From an uncultured Alphaproteobacteria bacterium (GTDB taxonomy: Bacteria; Pseudomonadota; Alphaproteobacteria; DATDPM01): DNA of 64,000 nt. The notes beneath the pieces were generated by a model. That model searched no databases. It was given only the letters and a program-made list of their open reading frames with translations, and had not been told where the DNA came from. Of the stretch, positions 8,857 to 64,000 are shown in pieces (positions within the stretch are counted from its first letter, which is position 1; each line of letters opens with the position of its first letter). Made by a program: the position numbers and the translations under genes. The stretch is from assembly GCA_963841995.1 (NCBI GenBank), contig CAWJEX010000011.1:67105-131104 (forward strand), in the 5' to 3' direction.

Positions 8857-8879
8857 CGAAGACGACGTCAACGCGATGT

Positions 8880-23732: not shown

Positions 23733-23772
23733 AAAAGCCCGTCTTTGTTGGGGGTCTCCGGCCCCCTTATCC

Positions 23773-23832
23773 GAGACCCGCTCCCAGGCCTGCTCCGAGG
23801 CCCGCTCCAAGACCCGATTTTAGGCCCGGAAA
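23773..23832. repeat. Degenerate 12-bp tandem repeat, 5 units, in the dnaA-dnaN spacer
   Basis: gagacccgctcc / caggcctgctcc / gaggcccgctcc / aagacccgattt / taggcccggaaa. Confidence 0.65.
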
Positions 23833-23900
23833 ACCGCCCTTTTTCGGGGCAAGGAGAGCTCGGTTTTTCAGCCGAAAAAACTTCGGATTTCAACCGCTTC

Positions 23901-23909
23901 TGCTATAAT
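23901..23909 (+). promoter_or_regulatory. Extended -10 promoter for dnaN
   Basis: TGcTATAAT followed by an A-rich run, about 115 nt upstream of dnaN. Confidence 0.55.
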
Positions 23910-24025
23910 AAATAAACCCGCCGAAAGGGCTGATAAGGCCCCCTGTGGCGAGGTGCCCGGACGGGGTTCAAAAGCCCCTCGATCCGGGCCTTCTTCGGGG
24001 CCGTCTTGCAGCCACTTAAACGCGC

Positions 24026-25140
24026 ATGAAGTTCACCATCGAACGCGCCGCACTTCTCAAGTCGCTCGCCCATGCCCAAAGTGTCGTCGAGCGCCGCACC
24101 ACGATCCCGATTTTGGCCAATGTGATGTTGAGCGCCGCTGGCGACGCCCTGTCGTTGACGGCGACCGACATGGATATCGCCATTGTCGAGAAGACTCCGG
24201 CGACCATCCGCGCCAAAGGCACGACCACCGCGCCCGCGCACACGCTGTACGAGATCGTGCGCAAATTGCCCGAAGGTGCCGAGGTCGAAATCGCATTGGG
24301 CGAGGAAGGGGCGCGGCTCGCGATCAAATCCGGGCGCTCGCGATTCACGTTGGCGTCGCTGCCGCCGGAAGAATTTCCGATGATGACCGGCGGCGAGTTT
24401 CCGCATCGTTTCGTCTTGCCGGCGGCAGAGCTCCGTACGCTCATTGATCGATCGAGCTTCGCCATTTCCACCGAAGAGACGCGCTATTACCTGAACGGCA
24501 TTTATTTACACGTGACTGAAAGCGGCAAGGTGCCGGTCTTGCGTGCGGTGGCAACCGATGGCCACCGGCTTGCCCGGGTCGAAATGGCACGGCCCCAGGG
24601 CGCTTCGGGCATGCCGGGTGTCATTGTTCCGCGCAAAACGGTCCAGGAATTGCGGCGGCTTCTCGAGGATCTCGACGCTGAAGTCTCGATTAGCCTATCG
24701 GACACCAAGATTCGCTTCGCTTTCGACGACGTCGAGCTGACCTCGAAACTGATCGACGGCACCTTCCCCGATTATCAGCGGGTGATTCCCGAGGCCAACG
24801 ACAAAGTGATGGACGTCGGCTGCAAGGAATTCGCCGAGGCGGTTGATCGCGTCTCGACGATTTCCACTGAGAAATCGCGAGCGGTAAAAGTCGAGCTCAG
24901 GGACGGGACGTTGAAGCTTTCTGCCACCAGTCCGGAGAACGGTACCGCGACCGAAGAGCTCGGGGTGAGCTATTCCGGAAGCGTGCTCGAAATCGGGTTC
25001 AACTCGCGATATCTCCTCGACATCACGCGCCAGATCGAGGGCGAGACCGCCCGGTTCGCGATGGCCGATGCGGCGTCGCCAACGGTGGTCCGGGATGTCG
25101 CCGACGCGAGCGCGCTTTATGTCCTGATGCCGATGCGGGT

Positions 25141-25144
<4 letters not shown>
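24026..25144 (+). CDS. dnaN: DNA polymerase III beta sliding clamp
   Basis: TIPILANV, ATDGHRLA, KLIDGTFPDY, C-terminal VLMPMRV. Confidence 0.99.
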
Positions 25145-28806
<3,662 letters not shown>

Positions 28807-47083: not shown

Positions 47084-48986
47084 TTACTGCTGTTTTTGCA
47101 ACGCCTCGATCTCATCCAAGATATGGCTCATGCGCGCGACAAGCTTCTGATACGGCTCAGGGCTAGCCATATCGATGCCGGCTTTCTTGTACAGATTGTA
47201 GGGGTAGTCCGAGCCGCCAGCTTTCAGCATGGCGATGAAACGGTCGCGCGCGGGTGTGCCCTGGCTGATGATGTCGTCGGTTAATTGCGCCGCGCCCGCC
47301 ATCGAGGTGGCGTATTGCCATACATAGAAGCCGTAATAGAAGTGCGGGACGACTGCCCACTCGGTACAATAGGTGGGATTGATCTTCGTCACCCCTTCGG
47401 CTTCGCCGTAATATTTCTTCACTAGGTCGCAATACATGGTCGTCATCCGCTCGCCCGACAGCGGGCGGCCCGCTTCCAGCTCCTCGTGAATGGCAAGTTG
47501 GAATTCAGCGAACATCACCTGGCGGAAGAAGGTGGTGCGGATCGATTCCAGCCCCTGCCCCAGATAATAGAGCTTTTCTTCGTTGTTCTTGGCATGCGCG
47601 ACCATATAGTCGTTCAGCATCATCTCGTTACCGATCGAGGCCGTTTCGGCAACGAAGGTCGAATAGTTCGACTTCTCGAAGGGTTGCGCACCATGGGTGA
47701 GCATTGTGTGCACCGCATGGCCCCATTCATGGGCGATTGTGGAAAGCGAATTGTAATCGTCGTTGTGGTTGAGCAGCAGATAGGGATGAACGTCATAGGC
47801 CGAGCCGTTCATATAGGCGCCCGAAGCCTTGTGTGGCTGTGGATAGGCGTTCATCCAGCGCCCGGCAAATCCCATCTTCAGCAGATCAAGATATTCGTCG
47901 CCATAGGGCTGCAACGCATCGATGGTGATGCGTTCGGAAATCCGCGACCGAAAATTTGGGTGGGTTAGCGAGCTTAAACATGTTGGGATACATATCCTCA
48001 TAGCCCAGATCGTCCTTAATGCCGAGCATCTGCTTTCTTAGCTTCAGATAGCGATAGAGCACGGGCAGGCCTGCGTTCGCCTGAGCCACCAGCGTGCGGT
48101 AAACCGCATCGGGCATGTTGTCGGCAAAGGTGGCCGCTGCCAGCGCACTCGGGAAGTGACGCACCTTGGCGTTGAACTCTTCGGTCATCACCTGCGTGGT
48201 CAGGGTTGCGCCGAAGGTGTGCGCGTAATTCTGATAGGCGCCATAGAACGCATCGAATATCTTTCTGCGGTCGTTGCGATCCTCCAGCTGGCGATATTTG
48301 GTGAAAGCAGCGTCACTAAGTTTCGCCTCCGTGCCGTCTGACAATTTAACGGTGGGAAACTGCAGATCGCTATGCGCGAGCTGGTCGCGGATGTTGTCAG
48401 GTTGCTGCATCACATCGCCTGCAGCGGCGATGACACCTTCGGATTCGGCACTCAGTGTGTGCGGCGCTGCGCGCAACGTATCGGCGAGAAAGAAATCGAA
48501 GCGCGAAGCCAATTCTTTGTTGCTTTTTTCGAATGCCCCAACCTTCTGCGCTCCCACTTTCAGGATTTCCGGTGCTAGCCACGCGGTCTTTTCGCCTGCT
48601 TCGGTAAACAGCGCTTGAGCGAGCTGGCGACGTTCCTGACTCGCGGAATTGCTCAAATCCTCGTCGCCCTTGAGGCTGGCATAGACATTGAGCCGTGCGG
48701 TTTCTTTGTTGACTTCGCTAATAGCGGAAAGCGCTTTCAGCATCGCGGCCGCACTTTTGCCCAGGGTGCCCTTGTATTGATCGAGCTTGTCGGTCTCGGC
48801 CTTGATTTTGTCGTGCTCGGCCGTCCAAGCCTCGGGCGTGGGATAAAGATCGCTTAAATCCCAGACATATTTCTGATCGGGATTGGCCGCTGCCGCATTA
48901 TCAGCGGCGTTCGTGGAGCTCGTGCCAAGCAGAAGTACCGCGGCAAACGCAATCTGTGCGGCAGACCGGTGGTGTAAAATCATCAT
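47084..48986 (-). CDS. pepF: Oligoendopeptidase F (M3B) with signal peptide; extra base near 47940
   Basis: WDLSDLY N-terminus; HEWGH zinc motif, FVAETAS, FRQVMFAEF, PHFY; two overlapping ORFs join at PKFSVAD/SERITID. Confidence 0.92.
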
Positions 48987-49207
48987 GGGCTCCCCCTTGA
49001 AAATTCGCTTCCGAAATCGGATTGCAACCTTAGCCAATGCGGGGAGCAATTCCAAAGCCGCGAGGTTACACCCGTGCAATCTGCGGTGGACTCTGCGGGC
49101 GTAAAAATTCCTTTGTATTTCAGTGGCCTGAAGGGCATTAAGTAAAACAATCAGCGACAACGCTTACCGGCCTATGCTTCACAACGCCGCGAGCAAAGGA
49201 GCCCCAA

Positions 49208-51394: not shown

Positions 51395-53660
51395 ATGCAC
51401 CGTATCGTCCTGCTCGCCAGCGCGAGCCTTATTTTCGCGGGCGCTTTGGCCGCGAGCGCAGCCGTTCCTGCACAGGCGCCAGACGCCGAAACGGCTCTCG
51501 AACAAAAATTCGACGAGGCCGTCCAGCCCAACGAGATGCGCGACTGGATGAAGCTGTTGGCAGCGCAGCCCAATCATGTGGGCTCACCGCACGACAAGGC
51601 CAATGCCGAAACGATACTCGGCTGGTTCAAGCAATGGGGCTGGGACGCACATATCGAGACGTTCCAGGTGCTATATCCTACGCCCGTTTCCGAGACGCTG
51701 GAGATGCTGGCGCCCAAGCCGTTCAAGGTCACGCTACAGGAGCCGCCAATCCCTGGCGATTCCAGCGCGACGGCAACCGATCCGGCACTTCCGGCCTATC
51801 TCGCCTATCAGGGCGATGGCGACGTGACGGCGGGCCTCGTCTACGTCAATTACGGCATGCAGGACGACTACAAGACGCTTGAAAAACTTGGCATCAGCGT
51901 CAAAGGCAAGATCGCCATCGCGCGCTATGGCCATGGCTGGCGCGGGTTGAAGCCGGAACTCGCGCAGGATCACGGCGCTGTTGGTTGCATCATCTACTCC
52001 GATCCGGCCGACGATGGTTATTCCGTCGACGCAACCTATCCCGATGGCCCGGCGCGGCCACCGCATGGCATCCAGCGCGGCTCGGTTGCGATCATGCAGA
52101 TCTATCCCGGCGATCCATTGACCCCGGGCGTTGGCGCGACAGCAGACGCGACACGGCTGGACAGATCGCAGGCGCAGACGCTGCTGAAGATTCCGGCGCT
52201 ACCGATTTCCTATGCCGACGCGCAGGTACTGCTGGCAGCGATGGGTGGCCATGTGGCGCCGCCGGAATGGCGCGGCGCGCTGCCGATCACCTATCGGGTC
52301 GATTCCGGCAACACGATGGTTCATCTCGCAGTCAATTCCGATTGGAGCCTGAAAACAATTTATGACGTCGTCGCGATGATGAAGGGCTCGACCTATCCCG
52401 ACCAATGGGTCATGCGCGGCAATCATCATGACGGATGGGTGTTTGGCGCCAGCGATCCACTTTCGGGCCAGGTGTCGCTGCTCGAGGAAGCACAGAATTA
52501 TCGGCGGCCTGGCGAAGCAAGGTTGGCAGCCCAAACGCACGCTTGTCTATTTGAGCTGGGATGGAGAAGAGCCGGGGCTGTTAGGCTCGACCGAATGGGT
52601 GGAAACCCATGCCGACGAGTTGAAGCAGAAGGCTGTGCTTTACGTCAATTCCGACACCAATGGCCGGGGACATTCTTAAGATCGATGGCAGCCATGACTT
52701 TCCAGCATCTAGTGAATATGGTCGCCAGCCGACGTGATCGATCCCGAAAAGAACGTCCCTGTCGGCCAGCGCCTACGCGCCAAGCTGCGCCTTGACGCAC
52801 TCGCGCCGGATGCCAAGCCGCACGTAAAGGAAGAGGCCAAGATCGCGGCTAACCCCACAAAAGATTTCCCCATCGAGGCGATGGGTTCGGGCTCGGATTA
52901 TGCGAGCTTCATCGAACATCTGGGCTTGCCTGCGCTGAATATCGAGTATGGCGGTGAAGGTAGTAGCACAGGCGTCTATCACTCGCGCTATGACACTTTC
53001 GAGCACCACAGCCGGTTCGTGGATCCAGGCTTTGTTTACGACGGACTTCTAACGAAGACGATTGGGCGCGTGGTGTTGCGTACGGCCGATAGCGATCTGC
53101 CGTTGCAGCGAGCAAGCGGTTTCTCTGACGCGATCTCGGATTACCTCGCCGAAATCAAAAAATTGATCAAAGACAAGAGCGAGGAAGCTGAAACACAAAC
53201 GAAATTGCTGCGCGATTGAGCCTTCGCGCTGGTGGCCGACCCGACCAAATCGAGCGGCCAGCCGACGGCATTACAGCCTGTGCCGAAGATCGATCTTGCG
53301 GCGCTGGAAAACGCAACCAACAGACTTAAGCGTAGCGCCAAGGCTTATGACGATGCTTTCGCCAAGAACGCCGCGCGGCTTAATGCAGGCCAGCAAGCCC
53401 GCCTGCAGGCGCTGATGCGCGATATCGATCAGACGCTGGCGCCTGCCATCGGCCTGCCCGGCCGGCCCTGGTACAAGAATCTGATTTACGCGCCGGGACG
53501 CTTCACCGGTTACGAGACCAAGACCTTGCCCGGCGTGCGCGAGGCGATCGAGGATCAACGCTGGGCGGATGTCGATCGTTACGCCAAGTTCACCGCGGGT
53601 GCGCTTAATGCTTACAGCAAGCGGCTGGATCAGGCGGCGGCGCTGCTCATGGGAAAATGA
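51395..53660 (+). pseudogene. M28 peptidase (glutamate carboxypeptidase II / transferrin-receptor-like), broken by several indels at ~52490-52740 and an in-frame TGA at 53217
   Basis: PA domain YVNYG and IIYSDP, GNHHDGWVFGA, WDGEE, GSGSDY, YHSRYD, C-terminal GLPGRPWYKN. Confidence 0.85.
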
Positions 53661-53704
53661 GCCGGGCGTGGCTCATCTCAGGAGGTTGCGGCTGCGAGAA
53701 ACAG

Positions 53705-55381
53705 TCAGAAGACCACGCGCTGATAGGTGATCTCTTGGGCGATCTTGGCGAACGTGCTGATGATTTCGCCCGACGTCGTCAGATCGAAATACTTATTTGA
53801 ATCCGTGGCACAGGCCTGCAGCACAGCCGAATTTCCTTGCGTCCCATTGAGATCGACGAAGACCGTATAGATGGTGACGCCAGCCGCCTTGGCGTTGTTG
53901 CAGGCCAACGTCATGCGTGCGTCGACCTGTGTGCTTTGATCGGAGCCATCGCCATACCAGCGGTCTTGCGTGTTCAACCCGTCGCTCAGCAGTATCATCA
54001 CCTGCCTGATCTTTTGCGGCGCAGGTGGCGGCGCTGGCGGTTTAAGCGGATTGCCTTGTGTCATGGCCTGCCAGCCCCAGGCCAAGCCAATCGTCTGATT
54101 GGTCGAGCCGCCAGCCGACATGGCATTCACCTGGCTGGTCAACGATATCCAATTGTCGCTGAGCCCGCCAAGCACGCTCGGCACACAGGATTGTGCGTTC
54201 TCGACCGGGAAGTTCGGGTAGAGACCTGGCGCGGCATTGGACACATCATAGTCTTGCGGACGATCCATAACGCAGCCGTTCCAAGTATTGTGGGCGTTTG
54301 CGACCCAAGTGTGGGTATAGGTTGGCTGCTTGCAAACCTTGCTTTTGCCACTTCCCGTGCATGAACATGCAGTGCTATGGCCGCTGCAAGAGCATGAACT
54401 TCCTGTGCAAACAGTCACAATCGTTGAGGTCTGCACGCTGTTGTAACAGCCATTGTAAAAGTGGCCGAGCCTGCCGGAATTTTTACTGCCATTGTCGACG
54501 CTGGGGCAGATGTAGCCGGCATAATTACCGCTCGAGGGCACAGTGCCCGCGCTCGAACTGCCGTTGGTTGGTGTGCTCTGGCACACATAGCCTTGACTGC
54601 TCGTGGTGTAGGGGCAGGTCGAGCCTGGACCGACATTAGCAAAAGAAGCGGGCGTGCCATTGGCGGGCGCCGATACCCAATCAGTCCAATCGATCCAGCT
54701 GGCGTTGACATTGGCAGTGCCGACGTTCACGTCCTTACTGAACGGAACTATCGCCACTTCCACGTCGCCAGGTGTAGTTACGGCGTTCTGCAATTGGGTG
54801 AGCAATTGGTTCGTAGCAGTCTTGAGGGCCGCTATCTTGCTGATGCCGCTGAAGTCAGTCTGGGTCATCGACCCGGTATTATCAAGCACCAGCGACACCC
54901 AGAGCTTATCCGTGGCGCTTGTGGCGATCGCGGTTGTTACGATACTCCAGTTGTTTACTCCGATTAGCGACAGAAGTGTCGTGGGCAACGCATTGCCGTT
55001 AGCGGCCGAACGCTTGACCGTGACCTGCACTGCGTTAAGTGGCGCACCGTTGGGCGTGAAGGTGCGCGTGTCGGTGTCCCAAAAGCCGGTGATGACATCC
55101 GTGTTAGCCAGCACGTCGCCATTGCTCGCCACGGGCATATTCTTGGCCGCGTATGTTTGGGCCATTTGAATGGTGTTGGCCGAATTCGGCAATTCCGTAA
55201 CGGCAGCAAGCGCCGCCGCGTCGGCGGTGGCCTGCATGATGGTGCGAACGCGCCAGGCATTGGCGCCATCGATGGCAAGTCCCCCCAGTGCCAGAAACGC
55301 TGGGATCAGACAGATTGCGAACACCGACGCCGAGCCACGCTCGTCGCTAGTTAGTTTACGGAAGGGCCGGAAGCAGATCAT
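53705..55381 (-). CDS. tadG: TadG-like pilus tip protein (Tad N-terminal, vWA domain, Cys-rich insert)
   Basis: DERG pseudopilin start, GLAIDG..MQATADAAALAA, MIDAS VLDNTGSM, GSTN, LLSDG. Confidence 0.85.
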   Translation of the reverse strand: MICFRPFRKLTSDERGSASVFAICLIPAFLALGGLAIDGANAWRVRTIMQATADAAALAAVTELPNSANTIQMAQTYAAKNMPVASNGDVLANTDVITGFWDTDTRTFTPNGAPLNAVQVTVKRSAANGNALPTTLLSLIGVNNWSIVTTAIATSATDKLWVSLVLDNTGSMTQTDFSGISKIAALKTATNQLLTQLQNAVTTPGDVEVAIVPFSKDVNVGTANVNASWIDWTDWVSAPANGTPASFANVGPGSTCPYTTSSQGYVCQSTPTNGSSSAGTVPSSGNYAGYICPSVDNGSKNSGRLGHFYNGCYNSVQTSTIVTVCTGSSCSCSGHSTACSCTGSGKSKVCKQPTYTHTWVANAHNTWNGCVMDRPQDYDVSNAAPGLYPNFPVENAQSCVPSVLGGLSDNWISLTSQVNAMSAGGSTNQTIGLAWGWQAMTQGNPLKPPAPPPAPQKIRQVMILLSDGLNTQDRWYGDGSDQSTQVDARMTLACNNAKAAGVTIYTVFVDLNGTQGNSAVLQACATDSNKYFDLTTSGEIISTFAKIAQEITYQRVVF

Positions 55382-55815
55382 GAGTTTGAGTTCAGTGCGG
55401 TTTCGTCGCGCATGGTGACCTTGGCGTCGAGGATGGAGTTGCTGAAGCCTCCGAAAGCGGCCAGCACGCCAAAGATGCTGGCATCCGATACCGGTAGGGA
55501 AATTTCGACCACATCATCGGTGCCCTGCGTCGCAGTTATGGTGTAGGGCCTATTAGGATATAGCAGCGCGCTTTGAGCATAGGTCTCCGCCGCGGGCGCG
55601 CTCAATTGGCCTGTCGTCATGCGGCGGACGGTATCGCGGGCAACACTCCACATGTCCGCCTGCATTAGGTAAAGCGAAGTCGCGTCCGCGATGAATCCCA
55701 TGATAACAAGAAACACAGGGATCCAGATCACGAACTCGACTGTTATGCTGCCGCTCTGCTCGCGGCCGAACCTGTTCAGGCGGGCGCGCTTGCGGCCAAA
55801 TCTTGAAATTCGCAT
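55378..55815 (-). CDS. tadE: TadE-like pseudopilin
   Basis: EQSG|SITVEFVIWIP, VARDTVRRM; stop overlaps the tadG ATG. Confidence 0.85.
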   Translation of the reverse strand: MRISRFGRKRARLNRFGREQSGSITVEFVIWIPVFLVIMGFIADATSLYLMQADMWSVARDTVRRMTTGQLSAPAAETYAQSALLYPNRPYTITATQGTDDVVEISLPVSDASIFGVLAAFGGFSNSILDAKVTMRDETALNSNS

Positions 55816-55853
55816 TTTACCCTACGCTGCCCCTCACACTTAATTTGTAAATT

Positions 55854-57122
55854 TTACAGTCTTATCCTGGCGAAAGCAATTTGAGGAGAATCAGCCTTTT
55901 CGTCCAAGGCCGTGGAGTCATCACGGTTAAGACGCAACAGCAGCCGTATCATCAGAATCATCAGAAAGAGCGAAAGCGCGGGCTGTCCGAAATAAGGATA
56001 GGGGGTAGTAACGATTGGCATGCTCCAGATGGAAAACATGAGGAGATCATCGATCAGGTTGCTGTCGTCGCGCGCGCTTAATTTTGCGAACATCCAGCCG
56101 AACGCGACCATGTCGTAGACGAATGCGTAAGGCGTGAAAAGATAGGTGGCGACAAGAAAAACCGCGCAAGACAGAAGCGGATCGCGCCTGCGCCAGAAGG
56201 TCCAGATCACAACTGCCAATGCCGCCAGCGAAATGGGCGCCTGCACCATCCAGGCGACGCCAGGCGAGAAACCAAACGCCCGCATGTTCATGAAAACCGT
56301 CGGCATTCCCCGCACCGACCAGCCTTGAATACCACGCAAAATGTAATTTTGCACTGGCACGGCGACATTCAGATAATCCGCCCAGATGTGGACGCCGTAG
56401 ATGACCGCGGTGAGTGCTGCAAGCAGGATTGCCGTTGCCGAAGCCGTGGCAAAGCAGCGCCAATTGCCGCGCAGAATAAGCACTACCGGCAACAGCAATC
56501 CCAGCTGTGGCTTCAGCGTCAGCAGGCCGAACAGCACGCCAGACAAAACGGGGCGCTTTTCCAGCTGCGTGAATCCGCCGATGATCAGCGCCGCGCTGAA
56601 AAAACCGTTCTGGCCGCAAAAATAACTGAGCGTGCCGGCGGGCCAGGTGGCGATGAGAGCCAGACGATTGAAAGGCTGCTCGACTTGCGTGGCGGTGAAA
56701 AAATATGCCGCGTAACCCGCCACGCTCCACAGAATCCAAGCGGGCAAATAAGGCAGCAAGCCCAGGATCCAGGTAAAAAGCAGGATATGCGGAGGATACG
56801 ACCAGTTGTAGAGTGGAGTGTGAGCGGAAAGCGCGAGGGCCTGGCGCAACGCGTCGTTATAGACAATCCGGTCGAACCATGCCGCCGGATCGTGGCCCAG
56901 CGCCGCGCGGCCCGACATCCAGGTGTTCATGAAATCGCGGCCGACGGGAATTCCGGACGGATCTAAAGGCGGGTGCGAGCCCCCGAAATATGAATAGCTA
57001 TAAATGATGAAATAAGCCGCGCCGCCAATGGCCAAAGGCCCGTAAAGCGCTTCAGAAAATTGCGCTTCGACGCCGAGCGTAACGGGCTGGCGGAGTTTGA
57101 TTTTGCTTCTTTTGAGGGTCAT
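55854..57122 (-). CDS. GT87/DUF2029-like multi-TM glycosyltransferase (GT-C fold)
   Basis: GRDF.N.W, WSYPP, GQNG, LTLKPQLG, TPY.F.YD; about 10 hydrophobic segments. Confidence 0.85.
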   Translation of the reverse strand: MTLKRSKIKLRQPVTLGVEAQFSEALYGPLAIGGAAYFIIYSYSYFGGSHPPLDPSGIPVGRDFMNTWMSGRAALGHDPAAWFDRIVYNDALRQALALSAHTPLYNWSYPPHILLFTWILGLLPYLPAWILWSVAGYAAYFFTATQVEQPFNRLALIATWPAGTLSYFCGQNGFFSAALIIGGFTQLEKRPVLSGVLFGLLTLKPQLGLLLPVVLILRGNWRCFATASATAILLAALTAVIYGVHIWADYLNVAVPVQNYILRGIQGWSVRGMPTVFMNMRAFGFSPGVAWMVQAPISLAALAVVIWTFWRRRDPLLSCAVFLVATYLFTPYAFVYDMVAFGWMFAKLSARDDSNLIDDLLMFSIWSMPIVTTPYPYFGQPALSLFLMILMIRLLLRLNRDDSTALDEKADSPQIAFARIRL

Positions 57123-57274
57123 TATAAAATCGCGAGACGCGCAAACCGCGGGATCGGGGAACGGAATGCAGAGCCCCGGTTACTATCCTCGAATGTTACC
57201 CTCTACATTGTCCGCCCGTTTCTATAACATGGGAGGTCAGGGAATGGAGTCGTGAAGATGAAAATCTTCAACTG

Positions 57275-57487
57275 GTGGTGGGAAGGCGGTTTTCTCGCTT
57301 CGCCAATTTTGCGCGAGAGGACAAGGGCCTTGTCACTGTCGAGTGGGTTGCATTGGCGGCCGCGATGGTCATCGGCGCGGTCACCATTGCCTGGATAGCC
57401 CTCACCAGTGTGGAGACTCAATCGAACACGGTCGGTTCGACGATTGGAAGCGTTGCCAACACGACGACCACTCAGCCACCTCCGTAA
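57275..57487 (+). CDS. Flp-type pilin 1 (start uncertain; an RBS-preceded ATG at 57258 is out of frame)
   Basis: EDKG|LVTVEWVALAAAMVIGAVTI; tail NTTTTQPPP. Confidence 0.82.
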   Translation: MVGRRFSRFANFAREDKGLVTVEWVALAAAMVIGAVTIAWIALTSVETQSNTVGSTIGSVANTTTTQPPP

Positions 57488-57855
57488 TGAAAACGTTGCA
57501 GTTGGGTTGCCATAAGGTGGCCTATTTGCCACGCAGCGAGGCAATTCACCATACTTCTTTGGTAAAAACTGACACTGCTACGCGCCCGACTGGAACTAAC
57601 CCGCTTAACTTATTGGTATTTTTGGCCAATTCTAGCTGGTTACTCTTTCGCGAAATCTGTTCCTTAAAAACTGAGGGATTGTGTATATAATCCACTTAAA
57701 TCTTTGCATGCCGCGGTGTGCATTAGACATACTCGGCGCAGGGGTTTTGGTGGGGACAGCGGGGCAAGCCGTCTCTGCATTCATCGTCATGTTTCGTGCC
57801 CAGAGCAGTGGACTGGTTGCGCACGTGTGCGCGAATTTTTCGGAAAGGGAAGTCA

Positions 57856-58062
57856 ATGAAAACGCGTAGAGGATTTATAAGCCGCCTCGCCAGGAGCGAA
57901 GACGGACTGGTTACGGTGGAATGGGTGGCGTTGGCCGCAGCTATGGTAGTCGGGGCGATAACAATCGGTTGGCTGGTGATGACTAACTTGAAAGCCCCCG
58001 CTAACCAAATTGGCACTGGAATCAATGCAGCGGCAAGTCAACCACTTCCAACTCCTCCGTAA
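57856..58062 (+). CDS. Flp-type pilin 2
   Basis: MKTRRGFISRLARSEDG|LVTVEWVALAAAMVVGA; tail SQPLPTPP; GGGGA RBS. Confidence 0.87.
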   Translation: MKTRRGFISRLARSEDGLVTVEWVALAAAMVVGAITIGWLVMTNLKAPANQIGTGINAAASQPLPTPP

Positions 58063-58149: not shown

Positions 58150-58210
58150 AATCACTTGCAGAAGCCGCTGTTGAGCAACAGCGTTTTTGTCGTTTCTTGA
58201 AGGATGGCTA

Positions 58211-59023
58211 ATGCAGCGCTCGGTTATCAGCCTCATTGTTGGAGTGGTGCTGGCTGGCATAGCGCTCATCCTGCTGAGCGTTTACTTGAGCTCGGCCAGG
58301 CCCGATGCTGAAGCCGACCAGGACAAAACCGGCACTGTGGTGGTGGCAGTTAGCGATTTCGCCGCCGGCACGCCGATACACCGCGAATATCTTAAGGCCG
58401 TGCCCTGGCCGCGGACATCGGTTCCGCAAACCTCGTTTGCCAGCATTGACGATGTCTTTCTTGGCGCCAAGACCGAAGCCGACCGCATCGCGCTGAAACA
58501 GATCGGCGCCGGCGAGCCGGTCCTGAAAACCGACATTTCCGGCTTCGGCTCGCGCGGGACGTTGTCGCGCCAGGTTTCGCCCGGCATGCGTGCCTTCGCC
58601 ATCCCGGTGAACGATGTCAGCGGCGTGGCGGGCTTCGTGCTGCCCGGCGATCACGTTGACATCATGCTGACGCGCACCACCGGCAACGACAACGAAAATC
58701 GCGTGACCGACGTCATCCTGCAGAACATCACCGTGCTGGGCGTCGACCAAGTAAGCGACCAGACCCGCGAGCGCCCCGAAGTCGCGCGCACGGCGACCGT
58801 GGAAGTGACGCCAGAGCAGGCGCAGAAGCTCGCGCTGGCCCAGCAGGTCGGCACGCTGAGCCTTTCGCTGCGCAACGCGGAGACGGTTGGACAGGTGCCT
58901 TCCGCGCGCATCGCCACCAGTGATCTTTCGACAAGCGGTCCTCAAGCGCCAGGCCAGGCCGGGCCCACGGTGCGCATTCATTACGGCCTGAACAGCACTG
59001 TTGAGAAAGCCGTACCGCAATAA
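58211..59023 (+). CDS. cpaB: Flp pilus assembly protein CpaB/RcpC
   Basis: VVVA SAF domain, PGMRAFAIPVNDVSGVAGFVLPGDHVD, ILQNITVLG, TVEVTPEQAQKL. Confidence 0.95.
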   Translation: MQRSVISLIVGVVLAGIALILLSVYLSSARPDAEADQDKTGTVVVAVSDFAAGTPIHREYLKAVPWPRTSVPQTSFASIDDVFLGAKTEADRIALKQIGAGEPVLKTDISGFGSRGTLSRQVSPGMRAFAIPVNDVSGVAGFVLPGDHVDIMLTRTTGNDNENRVTDVILQNITVLGVDQVSDQTRERPEVARTATVEVTPEQAQKLALAQQVGTLSLSLRNAETVGQVPSARIATSDLSTSGPQAPGQAGPTVRIHYGLNSTVEKAVPQ

Positions 59024-59080
59024 CCGCCGAAACGGGGTTTGCGCCCGCCCCTGGCGCTGGCCCCATCAAGCGGTGAGACA

Positions 59081-60526
59081 GTGGAGAGTATATTGGGTAT
59101 TCGAAAGCAATTCGTTGCTTCGGTTTTGGGGGCCCTGTTCGTTTTCGCCGCCTTTGCCCTGGCACCAGCGCGCGCCGCCGAAGGGGATGCGCCCGCTGCC
59201 ACGCGCACGCATCACCATCATATGCGCCCAGCGTATACCGGCATGATCGAGATTGATGGGGCACGCAAGGCGGTTCAGATAGTCGTCGCGGTGGGCAAGT
59301 CGCAGCTCATCCATGTCGAACGGCCGTTCAAGGATATCACCGTCGGCAGCAAGGATGTCGCCGACGTCGAGCCGCTGTCGGACAATATGCTCTATGTGCT
59401 GGGCAAAGCGCGCGGCACCACCAATGTCAGCCTCACCGACGCCTACCACAAAGTCATCGCCATCGTGGATGTCGAGGTCACTTACGATCTCGACGGCTTG
59501 CGCGAGCGGATTGCCGAAGTGGCGCCGGGCGACCCCGTCACCATCCGCCCAGCCGGTGACTCGATCCTGCTGAGCGGCACGGTCTCCAGCGCCGATCATC
59601 TGCGCGCGATTGCAGAACTTGCCGGGCATTTTGCGCCCGGCCCGACTGGTGTGACCAACATGCTGAGTATCAGCGGCAGCCAGCAGGTGCTGTTGCAAGT
59701 ACGCTTCGCCGAAGTGCAGCGCTCGGCCTTAAAGGAACTTGGGGTCAACACGAATTACTCACTGACCAGCGGCAAAGATCTGATCACTTCGACCACTGGT
59801 CAGGGTATCTCAGACACACCGTTCGGCGCCGCGGTGGCAAGCCTGATCAGCGGCAATTACACCTTCAGTGCAACAGTTGACGCACTGGAACAGAAAGGCA
59901 TTCTCCGTACGCTGGCCGAGCCCAACATCAGTGCACTTTCGGGCGCCAGCGCCAGTTTTCTTGCAGGCGGCGAAGTGCCCATCCCGGTGCCGCAATCGAT
60001 CTCAACCGGTGGCAGCGGCCTGACCACAATTCAGTATAAGGATTTCGGCGTTGGGTTGTCGTTTACCCCTACTGTAATCGCTCAGGACACCGTCAATCTC
60101 GAGATCAAGAGCGAAGTAAGCTCTATTGACCCAACCGTTTCGATCACTACGAATGGAATAACGGTGCCAGGCTTCAAGGTCCGCCGCAGCAACACGACGA
60201 TCGAGCTCAAGGACGGCCAAAGCTTCGCCATCGCCGGCTTAATCCAGGACGATTTCCAGGACGGCATCAACCAGCTGCCGGGCCTCGGCAATTTGCCCAT
60301 CATCGGTGCGCTGATGCGCTCTACCAGCTATAAACACAACCAGACAGAGCTGGTCGTGTTCATCACCGTGCATCTCGTGCAGCCGGTGGTGGCAAAGGCC
60401 TTGATGTCGCCTACCGATGAAGTGCAGTTACCATCTCCGATGGCGCTGTTTGGCCTGGGGCAACTTAACGGCAACCCCGCGCCTGGCGGCGGTATCGATG
60501 GAACCTATGGGTATATCTTGCCATGA
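59081..60526 (+). CDS. cpaC: Tad secretin CpaC/RcpA (start uncertain)
   Basis: QQVLLQVRFAEV, LAEPNI.ALSG..ASFLAGGEVP, ELKDGQSFAIAGL, LPGLGNLPIIGAL. Confidence 0.95.
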   Translation: MESILGIRKQFVASVLGALFVFAAFALAPARAAEGDAPAATRTHHHHMRPAYTGMIEIDGARKAVQIVVAVGKSQLIHVERPFKDITVGSKDVADVEPLSDNMLYVLGKARGTTNVSLTDAYHKVIAIVDVEVTYDLDGLRERIAEVAPGDPVTIRPAGDSILLSGTVSSADHLRAIAELAGHFAPGPTGVTNMLSISGSQQVLLQVRFAEVQRSALKELGVNTNYSLTSGKDLITSTTGQGISDTPFGAAVASLISGNYTFSATVDALEQKGILRTLAEPNISALSGASASFLAGGEVPIPVPQSISTGGSGLTTIQYKDFGVGLSFTPTVIAQDTVNLEIKSEVSSIDPTVSITTNGITVPGFKVRRSNTTIELKDGQSFAIAGLIQDDFQDGINQLPGLGNLPIIGALMRSTSYKHNQTELVVFITVHLVQPVVAKALMSPTDEVQLPSPMALFGLGQLNGNPAPGGGIDGTYGYILP

Positions 60527-60810
60527 CCAAAACCATACTCTTGTGTGTGCTACCCTGCCTTTTGCTGATGCAGGCCTGTGCGGCTGAGGCAGACAGGGAC
60601 CCGCATTTCGGTGATGCGGTGCGTAACAACATTACCGTGCAACTCGCCAATCCCAACGCGCCCAGTGGTCAGCCGATGACGACCAATGGTGAAAATGCGG
60701 CGGAAGCGCAGAAGCGATATGCTACAGATAAGGTGAAGACGCCTCCGGATGTTAATACAAAGGAAAACTCTGGCTCAAACTCGGGTGGTAGTTCTGGTAC
60801 TACCCCATAA
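60523..60810 (+). CDS. Small Tad-associated lipoprotein (pilotin-like)
   Basis: LLMQAC lipobox; FGDAVRNNI..Q..NP motif; overlaps the secretin stop. Confidence 0.75.
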   Translation: MTKTILLCVLPCLLLMQACAAEADRDPHFGDAVRNNITVQLANPNAPSGQPMTTNGENAAEAQKRYATDKVKTPPDVNTKENSGSNSGGSSGTTP

Positions 60811-60867
60811 TCGGGTGCCCCTATTTCGTGCGAGTTGGCGCCGGGTCTTGCCAAGTGGAAGCAGATA

Positions 60868-62173
60868 ATGGCGAAGAAACGGAACCAAAAAATCGAACCG
60901 ACGAATGAGTCTTCTGCTCAATCGCCTTTGGCCTCTATGGCGGCCGAGCTTGCCGCCAGCAAGCCCACGACCGAAACCCATGAACTGAAAATCCTAGCAC
61001 TGCTGCGCTCGGAGCCAGCGCGTGCCGAAGTGCTCTACGCACTGAAGCCGCTGGCCGAAGTCGCAGTCCAAATCATCGGGCGCAATGCGGATGTGGCCAA
61101 TTTCGTCATGCCTGATGGCTCCACGCCGACCGCTGTGCTCTTCGACGCCGATGTTTCCAATCCGGAGGACCTCGAGCAAATCCGCGAGTTAAAGAAAGCG
61201 GCGCCTATTGGCTCTTCAGTGGTGGCGCTTACCGATCGTGCCACCGATCTGGCCGCGCTGCGTGCCATACGCGCGGGCGCTGACGACGTGCTCTTAAAGC
61301 CCATCGAGACCGGCGAAGCGCGCGAGGTTCTTGGCCGTGTTCGCCACCTCAATACTGACGACCATGGCCAGACCGCAAGTGCCAGGACGCTCGTTTTCAT
61401 ACATGTGGCGGGTGGCGCAGGGGCAACGACACTGGCTGTAAACGCCGCCTTCGCGCTGACAAATGCGGCTCATAAACCACGCACCTGTCTGCTCGATCTC
61501 GACATACAGTTTGGCACCTGTGCAAGCTTACTCGATCTACCAACGACCTCGCCTATTGAGAATCTTTTCGAAGATCCCGAACGGCTCGACCGCGAGATGC
61601 TCGACAGCATGATGTTGCGGCATGCAAGCGGTCTCCGCATCCTGACCGCACCGAAAACGCCGTTACCTTTCGAATCCTTCGATGCGCGGTCTGGTCGGCG
61701 ATATCCTGCGCCTCGCGAAGCGCAGCTATCAATATATTATTGTCGATATGCCGGTAGCGCTTGCGCCATGGACCGAGACCGCGCTGCGCTCGGCTTCGAC
61801 CCTTTACCTTGTCAGCGAATTAAGCGTGCCAGCGGTGCATCGTATCAACCGCCTATTCGATCTGTTTCGTGACGAAGACCTGACACAAGTGCCGCTCAAG
61901 ATCGTGCTCAACAAGCAGCCTACTTCCATAACACAAGGGAGCGAGCTCACGGTTTCGCAATTCGCCAAGGCCGTTGGCCGCCAGGTTGATTACATCATCC
62001 CTGACGACCACGCGCTGATCTCAAGCTCGCACAATCACGGCCGCCCAGCCTTACAACTGAAACCGACCAGCCTGTTTGCCACACGCCTTGAGGAGATGCT
62101 CAACAAGGATCTGGGCGGCGATGTATTCGAGATCGCGCCGCGCGGATGGCGGCTGTCATTCCGGAGAGCGTGA
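60868..62173 (+). CDS. cpaE: CpaE/TadZ (receiver plus MinD-like ATPase), frameshift near 61690
   Basis: AIRAGADDVL, GGAGATTLAVN, LLDLDIQFG; second frame YQYIIVDMP. Confidence 0.9.
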
Positions 62174-62180: not shown

Positions 62181-63554
62181 ATGTTCCAGAAAACCACGCG
62201 CGGCGGCGTCAAGTCCGGCAAGACCCTGCCTCCCGATGTAGGCCAGATTTTCACCTCGACGGTCGAAACCGATGAGCGGGTGGCCAGTACGGTCGCACGC
62301 AAAACCGAACTCAAGGTCTTCCTGCACGAGAAATTGTTGGGGATGCTCAACCTCAGCGTACTCGACACCATGTCGCGCGATGAGCTTGGCAAGGAGCTAG
62401 TGCCGATCATCAAGGAACTGCTGATCGCGCGCGGTATCGTGCTCAACACACCGGAATACGCGCAGCTAGTCAATGAAGTATTGGACGAGGTGCTGGGCCT
62501 GGGACCTCTAGAGCCGTTTCTTAAGGACCCAACCGTCTCCGATATTCTAGTCAACACCTTCAAGCAGATTTTTGTGGAGCGCCACGGACGCCTTGAGCAC
62601 ACCACCGCGCGCTTCAAGGATGAGAAGCATTTCTTACGCGTGATTCAGAAGATCGTGAGTGGCGTGGGCCGGCGTGTGGATGAATCCCAACCCTGGGTCG
62701 ATGCGCGCCTACCCGACGGCAGCCGCGTGAACGCGCTTGTCCCCCCTTGCGCCGTCGACGGCCCACTACTGTCGATTCGTAAATTTTCCAAGATGCCCTT
62801 CACCATCGATCGTCTGATCGATGCAGGGTCAATCGACGCACGCATGTCAGTGCTGTTCGAGGTCATCGTCAAGGCGCGACTTAACGTGTTGATTTCCGGC
62901 GGCACCGGCACCGGCAAGACCACGCTCTTGAACGCGCTTTCCAGCTACATCAGCAACCGGGAACGCATCATCACCATCGAGGACACCGCCGAACTTCAAT
63001 TGCAGCAGTTCCATGTCGCACGCATGGAAACGCGCCAAGCCAATCTCGAAAATCAGGGCGAAGTGAGCCAGCGCGACCTGCTACGCAACGCGTTGCGCAT
63101 GCGGCCCGACCGGATCATTCTGGGCGAGGTACGCGGCGCCGAAGTTCTCGATATGTTACAGGCCATGAACACCGGCCACGACGGCTCGATGACCACGGTC
63201 CACGCCAACACGCCGCGCGACGCGCTAACCCGGCTAGAGCACATGGTCGGCATGACGGGAATTGAGATTCCGCTAAAGGCGCTGCGTGGCCAGATCGCCT
63301 CGGCGCTCAATGTCATCATCCAGGTGCAGCGGCTGAGTGACGGCCGTCGCCGTGTCGTCAGCATCCAGGAATTGGTCGGCATGGAGGGCGATGTGGTCAC
63401 TATGCAGGAATTGATCCGCTTTGAACGCACTGGAGTAGACACAGATAGTAATGTGCTCGGCAGCCATCGACCGACCGGCATCCGGCCGAAATTCATGCGC
63501 CGCTGCGAAGAATATGGCCTTACCATTCCCGCCGATCTGTTCCGAGCCGAATAG
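62181..63554 (+). CDS. cpaF: Tad secretion ATPase CpaF/TadA
   Basis: [57 protein letters not shown]. Confidence 0.97.
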
Positions 63555-63565: not shown

Positions 63566-64000
63566 ATGTCCACAATAGTCAACGTGGCCATTTACGGTGT
63601 CGTCATCCTTTGCGTCATTTTTCTCGCCGATGCGATCGTCGGCTTTTTTAGGGTGGCTCGCGGCCTCGATGAGGACGTGATTACCCGGCGCCTTGCGCAG
63701 GCGCCGCGCGAAGTTCAAACTCCAGAAGGTGATACACTTCCGCTCCTACGCCCCGCCATTATCGCAGCCACCGGGTGGATGCGCTATGTGCCGTTTCTGA
63801 GTGCTCTGGAAATTCTCGTTACGCAATCGGGAACGGGCATTTCGGTCAAACGGCTGCTGTCTGCGATTGCCATTTCGGCGGCCGTAACCTTTGTCGTTTT
63901 CGCCGTTATCCTGCCTGGCACGCTGTTGCTCGTGGCCATCGGCATGGCTTTGCTCGCGGCCTTCGCTCCCATTCTCTACCTCATGCGCGCGCGAAGCACG
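63566..64000 (+). CDS. tadB: TadB-like type II secretion F-family protein (runs off the window)
   Basis: Open frame from ATG 63566 ([19 protein letters not shown]..) with TM segments, directly after cpaF. Confidence 0.75.

What the first reader, a model, noticed from the sequence alone, without database searches (positions are those of the whole stretch)
53705..58062. Candidate Tad/Flp pilus glycosylation system built around a GT87-like GT-C enzyme
Seen: a GT87/DUF2029-like membrane glycosyltransferase ends 38 bp upstream of tadE-tadG on the same strand and shares a short (~150 bp) divergent intergenic region with two Flp pilins. Both pilins end in Ser/Thr/Pro-rich tails (STIGSVANTTTTQPPP; AAASQPLPTPP), and TadG is also very Ser/Thr-rich. 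Known: GT-C enzymes use polyprenyl-phosphate sugars in the periplasm; the GT-C enzyme TfpW glycosylates Ser/Thr of a Pseudomonas type IV pilin; characterised GT87 members are actinobacterial mannosyltransferases. Inference: this enzyme O-glycosylates the pilins or TadG, for example for phage evasion or adhesion. I know of no described GT87-based Tad glycosylation system, but cannot check novelty.
Basis: partly seen in the sequence, partly recalled or inferred. Interest (0 to 1): 0.72.

Follow-up and report, generated by a model that had tools for sequence, protein, structure and literature searches.

The report
Membrane glycosyltransferase gene tied to Tad pilus
A PimE-like membrane sugar-transferase gene sits in one operon with Tad pilus minor-subunit genes next to two unusual pilin genes, and relatives of this enzyme lie beside Tad pilus genes far more often than chance in other bacteria, which suggests an undescribed way of sugar-coating these adhesive pili that still needs a bench test.

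Summary
A 422-aa GT87/DUF2029 protein (55854-57122, minus strand) lies 38 bp upstream of tadE-tadG. It is 152 bp divergent from two short pilins whose tails are rich in Thr, Ser and Pro. A full cpaB-C-E-F/tadB-C-D/A24 locus follows.

New findings:
- The pilins form a divergent Flp subfamily that Pfam misses, with conserved Thr/Ser-rich tails that mostly end in a Pro-x-Pro-type motif.
- The enzyme model resembles PimE most closely.
- GT87 homologues lie within 10 kb of cpaB or tadE in 7-8 of 41 alphaproteobacterial genomes that carry one. Chance expectation is 0.33. An ArnT-like control family gave 0 of 85 matches.
- The arrangements differ: beside tadE/tadG, beside flp, inside cpa operons, and as flp+GT87 pairs.

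Against a simple story:
- Tad-linked enzymes are not one clade.
- Most homologues sit in housekeeping contexts.
- Three GT87-positive genomes have no Tad genes.
- Elsewhere the linked pilins are ordinary Flp with no special tail.

Best reading (about 0.42): the enzyme glycosylates Tad pilus subunits in the periplasm from a polyprenyl-phosphate sugar. The main rival is a Tad-coupled envelope glycan that is not a protein. My literature searches found no description of such a system. No glycan has been shown.

The parts
53705..55381 (-). TadG-like minor pilin or tip protein. It has an N-terminal Tad/TadE-G-like segment, a Tad_C domain, and a VWA domain split by an insert of about 190 aa rich in S, T and Cys.
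   Evidence: Pfam PF13400 E 1.9e-10, PF09977 E 1.5e-09, PF00092 E 2.1e-07. S+T is 20.6% and there are 16 Cys. The C-terminal part (53661-54918) is non-homologous in the close relative L002.
55378..55815 (-). TadE-like pseudopilin.
   Evidence: Pfam PF07811 E 8.3e-07. It overlaps the tadG start by 4 bp.
55854..57122 (-). GT87/DUF2029 GT-C membrane glycosyltransferase. It is the first gene of the GT87-tadE-tadG unit.
   Evidence: PF09594 E 2.9e-33. The AF2 model has pLDDT 74 and pTM 0.76. The top Foldseek hits are PimE 9dm7 and 9dm5. D63 and K204 are invariant. No terminator-like site lies in the 38-bp gap to tadE. It is the only GT87 in the genome.
57123..57274 (.). Divergent intergenic region of 152 bp between GT87 and pilin 1.
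   Evidence: The sigma-70-type scan found nothing above its background.
57275..57487 (+). Pilin 1, a divergent Flp-type prepilin. It has the leader ...EDKG/LVTVEW and the tail ...ANTTTTQPPP.
   Evidence: No Pfam hit. It belongs to family alignment A2. hhalign against canonical Flp gives probability 95.4%.
57856..58062 (+). Pilin 2, of the same subfamily, with the tail ...AAASQPLPTPP. A promoter-like site lies at 57664-57691 and a terminator-like hairpin at 58166-58183.
58187..59023 (+). CpaB/RcpC.
   Evidence: PF16976 E 2.3e-35.
59039..60526 (+). CpaC/RcpA secretin.
   Evidence: PF00263 E 3e-44 and PF13629 E 1.6e-17.
60523..60810 (+). Small putative lipoprotein in the place of CpaD, with a Ser/Gly-rich C-terminus.
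   Evidence: ORF and sequence. There is no family match above cut-off. A 29%-identical counterpart occupies the same position in G001.
60835..62173 (+). CpaE/TadZ-like ATPase read in two frames, with the shift near 61690.
   Evidence: Two overlapping ORFs. Weak Response_reg and AAA_31 hits. The same break is present in L002.
62181..63554 (+). CpaF/TadA ATPase.
   Evidence: PF00437 E 2.1e-67.
63566..64000 (+). TadB, running off the window. TadC, a TPR TadD-like protein and an A24 prepilin peptidase follow downstream.
   Evidence: L006 (G000:C11:130600-145600): T2SSF twice, TPR, and Peptidase_A24 E 3.3e-16.

Best explanation
The gene encodes a PimE-like GT-C enzyme. Its active site, with the invariant Asp63 in the first periplasmic loop, faces the periplasm and takes a sugar from a polyprenyl-phosphate carrier. 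By analogy with PimE the sugar is most likely mannose. The carrier would be made and flipped by GT2/GtrA proteins encoded elsewhere in the genome.

The gene is transcribed together with tadE and tadG, and divergently from the two pilin genes. It most likely O-glycosylates subunits of this Tad pilus: the Thr/Ser-Pro tails of the two Flp-like pilins, or the S/T-rich TadG or TadE, or both. This would happen after the subunits enter the inner membrane and before or during assembly.

Shown: the family, the fold, the gene order, and the recurrent non-random linkage of the family to tad genes. Inferred: co-transcription, the donor, the acceptor and the glycan.
For: Identity of the enzyme
- Family and fold: PF09594 at 116 bits. 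PimE is the top structural match, with TM-scores of 0.54-0.62.
- D63 and K204 are invariant. PimE has a catalytic Asp at the tip of its first loop and a phosphate-binding Lys (passages of bioRxiv 10.1101/2024.09.17.613550).

Operon anatomy
- The gap to tadE is 38 bp with no terminator-like site, and tadE and tadG overlap.

Linkage in other genomes
- GT87 lies within 10 kb of cpaB or tadE in 7 (8) of 41 genomes from 6 (7) GTDB families, that is 8 (9) of 61 matches. Chance expectation is 0.33 and Poisson P is 6e-8. The PMT_2 control gave 0 of 85 matches, Fisher p 2.7e-4.
- The arrangements differ, so the linkage has been kept or re-made repeatedly. They include tadG-(unassigned ORF)-tadE-GT87 (L088), tadC-tadE-tadE-marR-GT87 (L089), tadE-tadE-tadG facing GT87 (L093, and G128 contig 140), cpaA-GT87-cpaB (L031) and tadC-GT87 (L012, L034, L045, L048).
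- In L055 no other tad gene was detected by tblastn within 10 kb of the flp+GT87 pair. In L004 none was detected within the 10 kb and 7.4 kb of flank available. This is like pilA-tfpW, and it points to the pilin rather than the machinery.
- flp is directly adjacent to GT87 in 5 of 34 genomes of the L004 genus.

Within the window's lineage
- GT87 and pilins of this subfamily share a contig in 4 assemblies: the window, L002, a 99,513-bp contig and a 765,214-bp contig.
- The same-genus genome G001 has the homologous locus (CpaF 59% identical, with tadE-tadG). It has no GT87, and its pilin is of another type without the Thr/Pro tail.
- The pilin subfamily keeps Thr/Ser-rich tails, and most end in a Pro-x-Pro-type motif (38 sequences).

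Donor supply and precedent
- GT2+GtrA genes are present on contig 1.
- TfpW, a GT-C enzyme encoded next to pilA, O-glycosylates a type IVa pilin (passages of bioRxiv 10.1101/2020.04.19.049825).
Against: - No glycan has been observed. The acceptor is entirely inferred.
- Tad-linked enzymes are scattered over the family tree: 21 changes against a shuffled mean of 22.3. There is therefore no dedicated Tad clade.
- In 33 of the 41 genomes no GT87 copy lies near tad genes.
- Three GT87-positive genomes have neither cpaB nor tadE.
- The closest non-linked homologues (36-46% identical) sit beside grpE/dnaK, efp or dsbA. That suggests a constitutive envelope role.
- Outside the window's lineage the linked pilins are ordinary Flp. 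In the L004 genus they are identical or near-identical to unlinked paralogues.
- Characterised GT87 enzymes act on lipoglycans, not on proteins.
- No donor-synthesis gene lies in the locus.
- cpaE is read in two frames, so the machine may be defective, unless this is an assembly error.
- The cryo-EM map of the Caulobacter Tad pilus showed no density attributable to glycosylation (PMC10710030 passage).
Confidence: 0.42

Rival explanations
1. The enzyme adds a sugar to an envelope glycoconjugate that is not a protein, such as LPS core, lipid A, a lipoglycan or an adhesive polysaccharide. It is linked to tad genes because pili and that surface glycan are used or regulated together during attachment.
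For: - Characterised GT87 enzymes use lipid-linked glycan acceptors.
- Many close homologues are stand-alone genes beside dnaK/grpE, efp or dsbA.
- Fifteen of the 120 listed homologues are fused to GtrA, and some lie beside GT2 genes (L004, L034, L009). That is the layout of Gtr-type surface-glycan modification.
- GT87 occurs in 3 genomes with no tad genes.
- The linked copies are not a clade.
Against: - This reading does not explain why the gene sits inside pilin and pseudopilin operons: cpaA-GT87-cpaB, tadE-GT87 and flp-GT87 pairs with no other tad gene detected nearby.
- The ArnT-like GT-C family, which does modify lipid A and LPS, is never near cpaB in the same genomes: 0 of 85 matches.
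- In the window's genus the gene is accessory. It goes together with the special pilins, not with the core genome.
Confidence: 0.28
2. The protein is tied to the Tad machine, but not by decorating the filament. For example, it might glycosylate a machine lipoprotein or the secretin, or act as a membrane scaffold that has lost catalysis.
For: - Linkage is sometimes to the machinery end of the operon, after tadC or between cpaA and cpaB.
- The small lipoprotein at 60523-60810 has a Ser/Gly/Thr-rich tail.
- PIG-U, a non-catalytic relative of the fold, is among the structural hits.
Against: - The catalytic-type Asp and Lys are invariant.
- flp+GT87 pairs occur with no machinery gene detected in the flanks available.
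Confidence: 0.1
3. The neighbourhood is a coincidence in this genome. The GT87 gene has nothing to do with the pilus.
For: Most family members are unlinked. Linkage is facultative within a genus, at 5 of 34 genomes.
Against: - Linkage is about 20 times the chance level, with a clean control family.
- The spacing to tadE is operon-like.
- The synteny is kept in L002 although this segment is the most diverged part of the locus.
Confidence: 0.12

Closest known systems
TfpW of Pseudomonas aeruginosa group IV strains, a GT-C enzyme that arabinosylates the type IVa pilin PilA
   Same: It is a polytopic GT-C enzyme encoded next to the pilin gene. It uses a polyprenyl-phosphate sugar of a kind known from mycobacterial cell walls and O-modifies Ser and Thr of a pilin. 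The donor pathway, including a GtrA-like protein, is encoded elsewhere (passages).
   Different: TfpW has 646 aa and a C-terminal periplasmic TPR domain, and it resembles Emb and ArnT. The window's protein has 422 aa, has no such domain, and resembles PimE. The pilus here is type IVc (Tad/Flp), not type IVa. Sequence similarity to TfpW was not tested.
PimE (GT87), the mycobacterial polyprenyl-phosphate-mannose:PIM4 alpha-1,2-mannosyltransferase
   Same: They share the Pfam family and PimE is the best structural match. Both have an invariant Asp in the first periplasmic loop and a conserved Lys.
   Different: A profile of the window's family finds no PDB sequence at E up to 1, and Foldseek reports 14-17% identity. 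PimE's acceptor is a glycolipid found only in Corynebacterineae. The host here is an alphaproteobacterium and the gene lies in a pilus operon.
O-oligosaccharyltransferases PilO/TfpO and PglL
   Same: They glycosylate pilins at Ser or Thr in the periplasm. tfpO is encoded directly downstream of pilA.
   Different: They belong to a different family (Wzy_C type). They transfer a preassembled undecaprenyl-pyrophosphate-linked glycan en bloc. The family assignment is recalled, not tested here.
Three-component Gtr-type glycosylation (GT2 synthase, GtrA flippase and a GT-C transferase)
   Same: Homologues of the window's enzyme are fused to GtrA in 15 of the 120 listed or lie next to GT2 genes. The genome has GT2+GtrA pairs.
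   Different: The known acceptors are O-antigen, teichoic acids and arabinan. In the window no GT2 or GtrA gene lies in the locus.
Canonical Flp/Fap pilins (PF04964) and cpa/tad loci, for example in Caulobacter
   Same: The machine components are the same set. The pilins are short, with a G/xxxxE-aromatic cleavage motif and a hydrophobic helix.
   Different: The pilins have an invariant LVTVEW in place of ATAIEY and get no Pfam hit. They carry a Thr/Ser-Pro tail. The Caulobacter pilus map showed no glycan density, and Caulobacter has no GT87 (control line).

Membership tests
GT87 / DUF2029 (PF09594) | Match to the family profile above the curated cut-off | tested here: met
   E 2.9e-33, 116 bits against a cut-off of 25, covering profile positions 1-237.
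GT87 / DUF2029 (PF09594) | GT-C membrane fold like the solved member PimE | tested here: met
   The AF2 model has pLDDT 74. The Foldseek top hits are 9dm7 and 9dm5 (PimE), E 9e-4 and 3e-3, TM-scores 0.54-0.62. Other GT-C enzymes follow.
GT87 / DUF2029 (PF09594) | Catalytic Asp at the tip of the first periplasmic loop, and a phosphate-binding Lys | tested here: inconclusive
   D63 (GRDF) and K204 (TLKPQ) are invariant in 10 of 10 homologues. PimE uses D58 and K195. No residue-by-residue structural superposition was available.
GT87 / DUF2029 (PF09594) | Polyprenyl-phosphate-mannose donor and alpha-1,2 transfer | not testable with these tools
   This needs an enzymatic assay. The genome does encode GT2+GtrA candidates for making a donor.
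Flp/Fap pilin (PF04964) | Match to the Pfam profile | tested here: not met
   No family at E up to 10 for 3 of 3 pilin versions. None of the 41 homologues carries a precomputed Pfam domain.
Flp/Fap pilin (PF04964) | Short prepilin with a G/xxxxE-aromatic site, a hydrophobic helix, and homology to Flp at profile level | tested here: met
   The motif G/LVTVEW is present and the mature length is 51-52 aa. hhalign of A2 against 19 canonical Flp gives probability 95.4% and E 1.9e-8 over 64 columns.
Tad/Cpa type IVc pilus locus | Core set: CpaB, secretin, CpaE/TadZ, CpaF/TadA, TadB, TadC, A24 peptidase, and the TadE/TadG pseudopilins | tested here: met
   All were found. However, cpaE is read in two frames. 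There is no CpaD profile match; a small lipoprotein takes its place.
TfpW-type pilin glycosylation | GT-C gene adjacent to the pilin gene | tested here: met
   The intergenic region is 152 bp and divergent. Same-strand flp-GT87 pairs occur in 5 of 34 genomes of the L004 genus.
TfpW-type pilin glycosylation | Large C-terminal periplasmic TPR domain, and Emb-like motifs | tested here: not met
   The protein has 422 aa and GT87 is its only Pfam family. The model is all membrane helices.
TfpW-type pilin glycosylation | The pilin carries an O-linked glycan that depends on the enzyme | not testable with these tools
   This needs mass spectrometry of wild type and mutant.
Gtr-type three-component system | GT2 synthase and GtrA flippase encoded with the GT-C | tested here: not met
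   There is none in the window or in the 15 kb downstream. GT2+GtrA genes lie on another contig.

The most novel reading that the evidence does not exclude
GT87-type GT-C enzymes form a previously unrecognised, repeatedly recruited glycosylation module for type IVc (Tad/Flp) pili. It would be the Tad counterpart of TfpW. A PimE-like enzyme would transfer mannose, or another polyprenyl-phosphate-borne sugar, onto the exposed C-terminal part of Flp pilins and onto TadE/TadG. In the window's lineage the module would have co-evolved with a new pilin subfamily that carries a dedicated Thr/Ser-Pro acceptor tail. The GT87-tadE-tadG-pilin segment is the fastest-diverging part of the locus, as expected for a surface under selection.
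Probability: 0.35. Interest if true: 0.8.

Novelty: new variant of a known kind. Interest (0 to 1): 0.62.

Why it matters
Tad pili drive attachment, biofilm formation, surface sensing and predation in many bacteria. Their pilins are generally treated as small, unmodified helices.

- A dedicated GT-C glycosylation module would add a layer of surface variation to Tad pili, with possible effects on phage receptors, adhesion and antigenicity.
- It would extend the GT87 family from actinobacterial lipoglycans to protein substrates in Proteobacteria.
- It would give a function to some of the many proteins annotated as DUF2029 or "alpha-1,2-mannosyltransferase".

The hypothesis can be tested directly in cultured Bradyrhizobium strains that carry the flp-GT87 pair.

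Tried and rejected
- Pfam and NCBIfam gave nothing for the pilins.
- A PDB sequence search with the family profile gave 0 hits.
- tblastn of the enzyme against PLSDB plasmids gave no match at E 1e-15.
- The complex prediction of GT87 with pilin 2 gave no verdict: score 0.00, controls not run. It counts neither for nor against.
- The idea that tad-linked GT87s form one orthologous clade was rejected by the tree.
- The idea that GT-linked pilins carry S/T/P tails in general was rejected. Canonical Flp in linked loci have ordinary C-termini. In the L004 genus the adjacent pilin is identical or near-identical to unlinked paralogues.
- Genome-level co-occurrence of GT87 with cpaB is 36 of 41, against 153 of 359 GT87-negative genomes. 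I do not use it as evidence, because genome size and lifestyle confound it.
- Promoter and terminator scans were at background level.
- The G222 locus (L090) is only borderline "linked". fabD, fabG and fabF lie between GT87 and flp.
- I could not determine whether LVTVEW-type pilins on five long metagenome contigs have a GT87 nearby. These are the contigs of 380,477, 260,728, 815,861 and 371,482 bp, and others.

Full report
**What is there**

On the minus strand:
- A 422-aa GT87/DUF2029 protein lies at 55854-57122 (PF09594, E 2.9e-33, 116 bits against a cut-off of 25).
- After a 38-bp gap comes a TadE-like pseudopilin at 55378-55815 (PF07811).
- Overlapping it by 4 bp is a 558-aa TadG-like protein at 53705-55381 (PF13400, Tad_C, split VWA).

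On the plus strand, 152 bp from the GT87 start:
- Two small pilins lie at 57275-57487 and, more likely from the ATG at 57856, to 58062.
- Then come CpaB, the CpaC secretin, a small lipoprotein, CpaE (read in two frames), CpaF and TadB.
- Beyond the window's end lie TadC, a TPR protein and an A24 prepilin peptidase.

No terminator-like site lies between GT87 and tadE. TadG has 20.6% Ser+Thr, against about 10% in the window's long ORFs. The quoted pilin tails are correct. The window is ordinary chromosome, with dnaA, dnaN, recF and gyrB at 22-29 kb. It holds no sugar-donor genes.

**The pilins**

Neither pilin matches Pfam Flp_Fap, even at E 10. They do have a G/LVTVEW processing motif and a hydrophobic helix.

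A protein search found 41 homologues, none with a precomputed Pfam domain. In an alignment of 38 of them the segment DG/LVTVEWVALAAA is invariant or nearly so. The C-termini are Thr/Ser-rich and most end in a Pro-x-Pro-type motif. A profile-profile comparison with 19 canonical Flp pilins gives probability 95.4% and E 1.9e-8. These are therefore a divergent Flp subfamily with a conserved Thr/Ser-Pro tail.

The genome also has a second, canonical cpa locus on another contig. Its two pilins match PF04964 and end in Ser/Ala-rich extensions. That locus has no GT87.

**The enzyme**

- This is the only GT87 in the 3.29-Mb genome.
- A profile of 10 homologues finds no PDB sequence at E up to 1.
- The AlphaFold model has pLDDT 74 and pTM 0.76. 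Its best structural match is PimE (9dm7 and 9dm5, TM-scores 0.54-0.62). ArnT, ALG3, EmbA/B, AglB and GPI mannosyltransferase I follow.
- Passages of the PimE preprint (bioRxiv 10.1101/2024.09.17.613550) describe a polyprenyl-phosphate-mannose donor, a catalytic Asp58 at the tip of the first juxtamembrane loop, and Lys195 at the phosphate.
- In the window's family Asp63 (GRDF) and Lys204 are invariant. That they are equivalent to the PimE residues is inferred, not superposed.
- Of the 120 homologues listed, 15 are fused to a GtrA domain.
- The genome has GT2+GtrA pairs and a GT2-GtrA fusion on contig 1. A polyprenyl-phosphate sugar supply is therefore plausible, but it is not encoded in the locus.

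**Is the linkage recurrent? Class-wide sample**

I searched 400 other alphaproteobacterial species genomes. Of these, 41 have a homologue at E 1e-20 or better, at 26-36% identity, giving 61 matches. I mapped cpaB (PF16976) and tadE (PF07811) in those 41 genomes.

A GT87 match lies within 10 kb of one of them in G286, G143, G155, G073, G254, G128 (two loci) and G182. G222 is borderline, because fab genes lie in between. That makes 7 (8) of 41 genomes, 8 (9) of 61 matches, and 6 (7) GTDB families.

- The chance expectation from genome sizes and copy numbers is 0.33. Poisson P for 7 or more is 6e-8.
- As a control I mapped the ArnT-like GT-C family PMT_2 in the same genomes. It gave 85 matches in 33 genomes, and none was within 10 kb of cpaB. 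Fisher p is 2.7e-4, or 7e-4 without G222.
- Related genomes are not independent, so these p-values overstate the case.
- G219, an unpublished genome, is among the 41 and is counted as unlinked.

**Is the linkage recurrent? Other loci and one genus**

Among 83 other loci, tblastn with the window's and the second locus's Tad proteins found tad genes in the flanks of 10: L004, L012, L031, L034, L045, L048, L055, L056, L081 and L086. The 83 comprise 80 metagenome contigs and L003-L005. Most of the 83 contigs are too short to judge. L055 and L056 encode identical GT87 proteins.

In a sample of the genus of L004, whose record names Bradyrhizobium yuanmingense, 37 of 60 other genomes have a homologue of the flp-adjacent copy. 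The tally includes the unpublished genome G427. In 5 of the 34 genomes checked an flp gene lies within 0.7 kb of it. In the others the nearest flp on the same contig is 105-250 kb away.

**Anatomy of the linked loci**

- Beside pseudopilin genes: GT87-tadE-tadG (window, L002); tadG-(unassigned ORF)-tadE-GT87 on one strand (L088); tadC-tadE-tadE-marR-GT87 (L089); and tadE-tadE-tadG facing GT87, followed by flp-cpaA-cpaB (L093, and G128 contig 140).
- Beside flp: L091, L092, L095, L004, and L055/L056. In L055/L056 three flp genes precede a GT87-GNAT fusion.
- Inside or after cpa operons: cpaA-GT87-cpaB (L031), and tadC-GT87 (L012, L034, L045, L048, L094).

L055 shows flp+GT87 with no other tad gene detected by tblastn within 10 kb. 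L004 shows the same within the 10 kb and 7.4 kb of flank available. This resembles pilA-tfpW.

**Evidence that limits the claim**

- A FastTree tree of 133 GT87 proteins shows the tad-linked rows scattered. It needs 21 changes, against a shuffled mean of 22.3, and 124 of 500 shuffles were as low. ORFs under 300 aa, or with alignments under 200 aa, were left out. Nine of the 61 class-sample matches were not fetched.
- The window's protein groups only with L002. It lies in a 51-row supported clade that holds 7 linked, 8 unlinked and 36 unjudgeable rows.
- Unlinked homologues with full or long flanks lie beside grpE/dnaK (L003, L014, L053, L061), beside efp, inositol monophosphatase and fba (L017, L024, L027, L032), or beside dsbA (L013, L046, L049).
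- Three GT87-positive genomes have neither cpaB nor tadE.
- Pilins in linked loci outside the window's lineage are ordinary Flp.
- In five genomes of the L004 genus the GT-adjacent pilin is identical or near-identical to unlinked paralogues. Ser+Thr in the last 18 residues is 5-7 for the adjacent pilins and 2-8 for the intact paralogues.

**Within the window's lineage**

- L002, a MAG chromosome whose CpaF is 100% identical, keeps the synteny.
- A GT87 that is 78% identical and a pilin of this subfamily share a 99,513-bp contig. A member of the window's 90% cluster and a pilin fragment share a 765,214-bp contig.
- In the window's own family, 0 of 5 genomes have the pilin, and only one has a GT87, a distant one at 34% identity.
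- G001 (same genus, 96% complete, no GT87) has the homologous locus (CpaB 46%, CpaC 44%, CpaF 59% identical, with tadE-tadG). Its pilin is of another type and lacks the Thr/Pro tail. This is one comparison only, but it points the way the hypothesis predicts.
- Between the window and L002, cpaB to cpaF are mostly above 97% identical. tadE and the tadG N-terminus are 73-89% identical. The intergenic region and the pilin 1 tail are 65-88% identical. The tadG C-terminal domain is replaced by unrelated sequence, 1258 bp against 1941 bp. The pilin-GT87-tadE-tadG segment is therefore the locus's hot spot of divergence.

**Literature**

- 'DUF2029' with 'pilus': 0 papers.
- 'Flp pilin' with 'glycosylation': 7 papers, 6 listed. 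I read passages of two. Neither mentions GT87 or glycosylation of a Tad pilin.
- 'tad, Flp, glycosylated, pilin, glycosyltransferase': 6 papers, seen as a listing, with passages of one.
- 'GT87' with 'Proteobacteria': CAZyme surveys only, seen as a listing.
- 'tad, pilus, mannosyltransferase, cpaB': listing only; nothing relevant by title or abstract.
- The Caulobacter Tad pilus paper reports no density attributable to glycosylation (PMC10710030, passage).
- TfpW is the nearest precedent (bioRxiv 10.1101/2020.04.19.049825, passages).
- Older reports that the Aggregatibacter Flp1 pilin is post-translationally modified are recalled only and were not seen here.
- Subscription journals are not covered, so 'not described' means not found in these searches.

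**Verdict**

The family-level association with Tad genes is well above chance, and I did not find it described. The mechanism, periplasmic O-glycosylation of Tad subunits from a polyprenyl-phosphate sugar, is the best-supported reading at about 0.42. It remains an inference. The family is functionally mixed, and a Tad-coupled glycan that is not a protein is a serious rival.

Noticed in passing
window 60835-62173 (shift near 61690): cpaE/tadZ is read in two overlapping frames, inside the ATPase domain. The same break is in L002. It is either a real frameshift, so the machine may be impaired, or a systematic assembly error shared by two assemblies. There is no homopolymer at the site.
   Followed up: partly
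window 51395-53660 and 47084-49160: A PA/TFR-dimer (M28-like) peptidase is split into three ORFs, and the same frame changes occur in L002. An M3 peptidase is also split in two. Together these suggest indel errors or gene decay in this assembly.
   Followed up: partly
window 53661-54918 against L002 (reverse complement 7127-9067): The TadG C-terminal domain is replaced by unrelated sequence in a relative whose cpaF is 100% identical. L002 also has an extra EamA-like transporter gene there. This looks like a cassette-like swap of the presumed tip-protein domain.
   Followed up: partly
L007:2295-2879, L031:1963-2796, L088:10839-11588, L092:9671-10399: A PEMT/ICMT-family membrane methyltransferase gene lies next to flp genes in four canonical alphaproteobacterial cpa loci, including the window genome's second locus. 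It may be another pilin-modifying enzyme. I did not look for a published description.
   Followed up: no
G000 contig 17 (L007:3113-3983): The genome's second, canonical cpa locus has two PF04964 pilins that end in Ser/Ala-rich extensions (...AAASASSSSAATS and ...AAASASASTS). Both pilus systems of this organism therefore carry hydroxyl-rich tails.
   Followed up: partly
L055:9911-11539 (identical protein in L056): A GT87 domain is fused to a C-terminal GNAT acetyltransferase, directly after three flp genes. A phage terminase gene lies about 3.5 kb upstream.
   Followed up: no
L003, L014, L053, L061; L017, L024, L027, L032; L013, L046, L049: Close homologues (36-46% identical) of the enzyme have conserved housekeeping neighbours in other Alphaproteobacteria: between grpE and dnaK, beside efp and inositol monophosphatase, or beside dsbA. 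Their function is unknown.
   Followed up: partly
L004:8218-13248 (G411 contig 48): In the genome whose record names Bradyrhizobium yuanmingense, three GT87-like genes lie in a row next to an flp gene. A GT2 gene lies 4 kb further on.
   Followed up: partly
L174 (G001 contig 23, 9058-19400): In a same-genus relative, tadE-tadG lie inside the cpa operon, between the small lipoprotein gene and cpaE, and there is no GT87. The tadE-tadG unit has therefore moved relative to the window.
   Followed up: partly
window 22338-28806: dnaA, dnaN, recF and gyrB are present. The window lies at the chromosomal replication-origin region.
   Followed up: no
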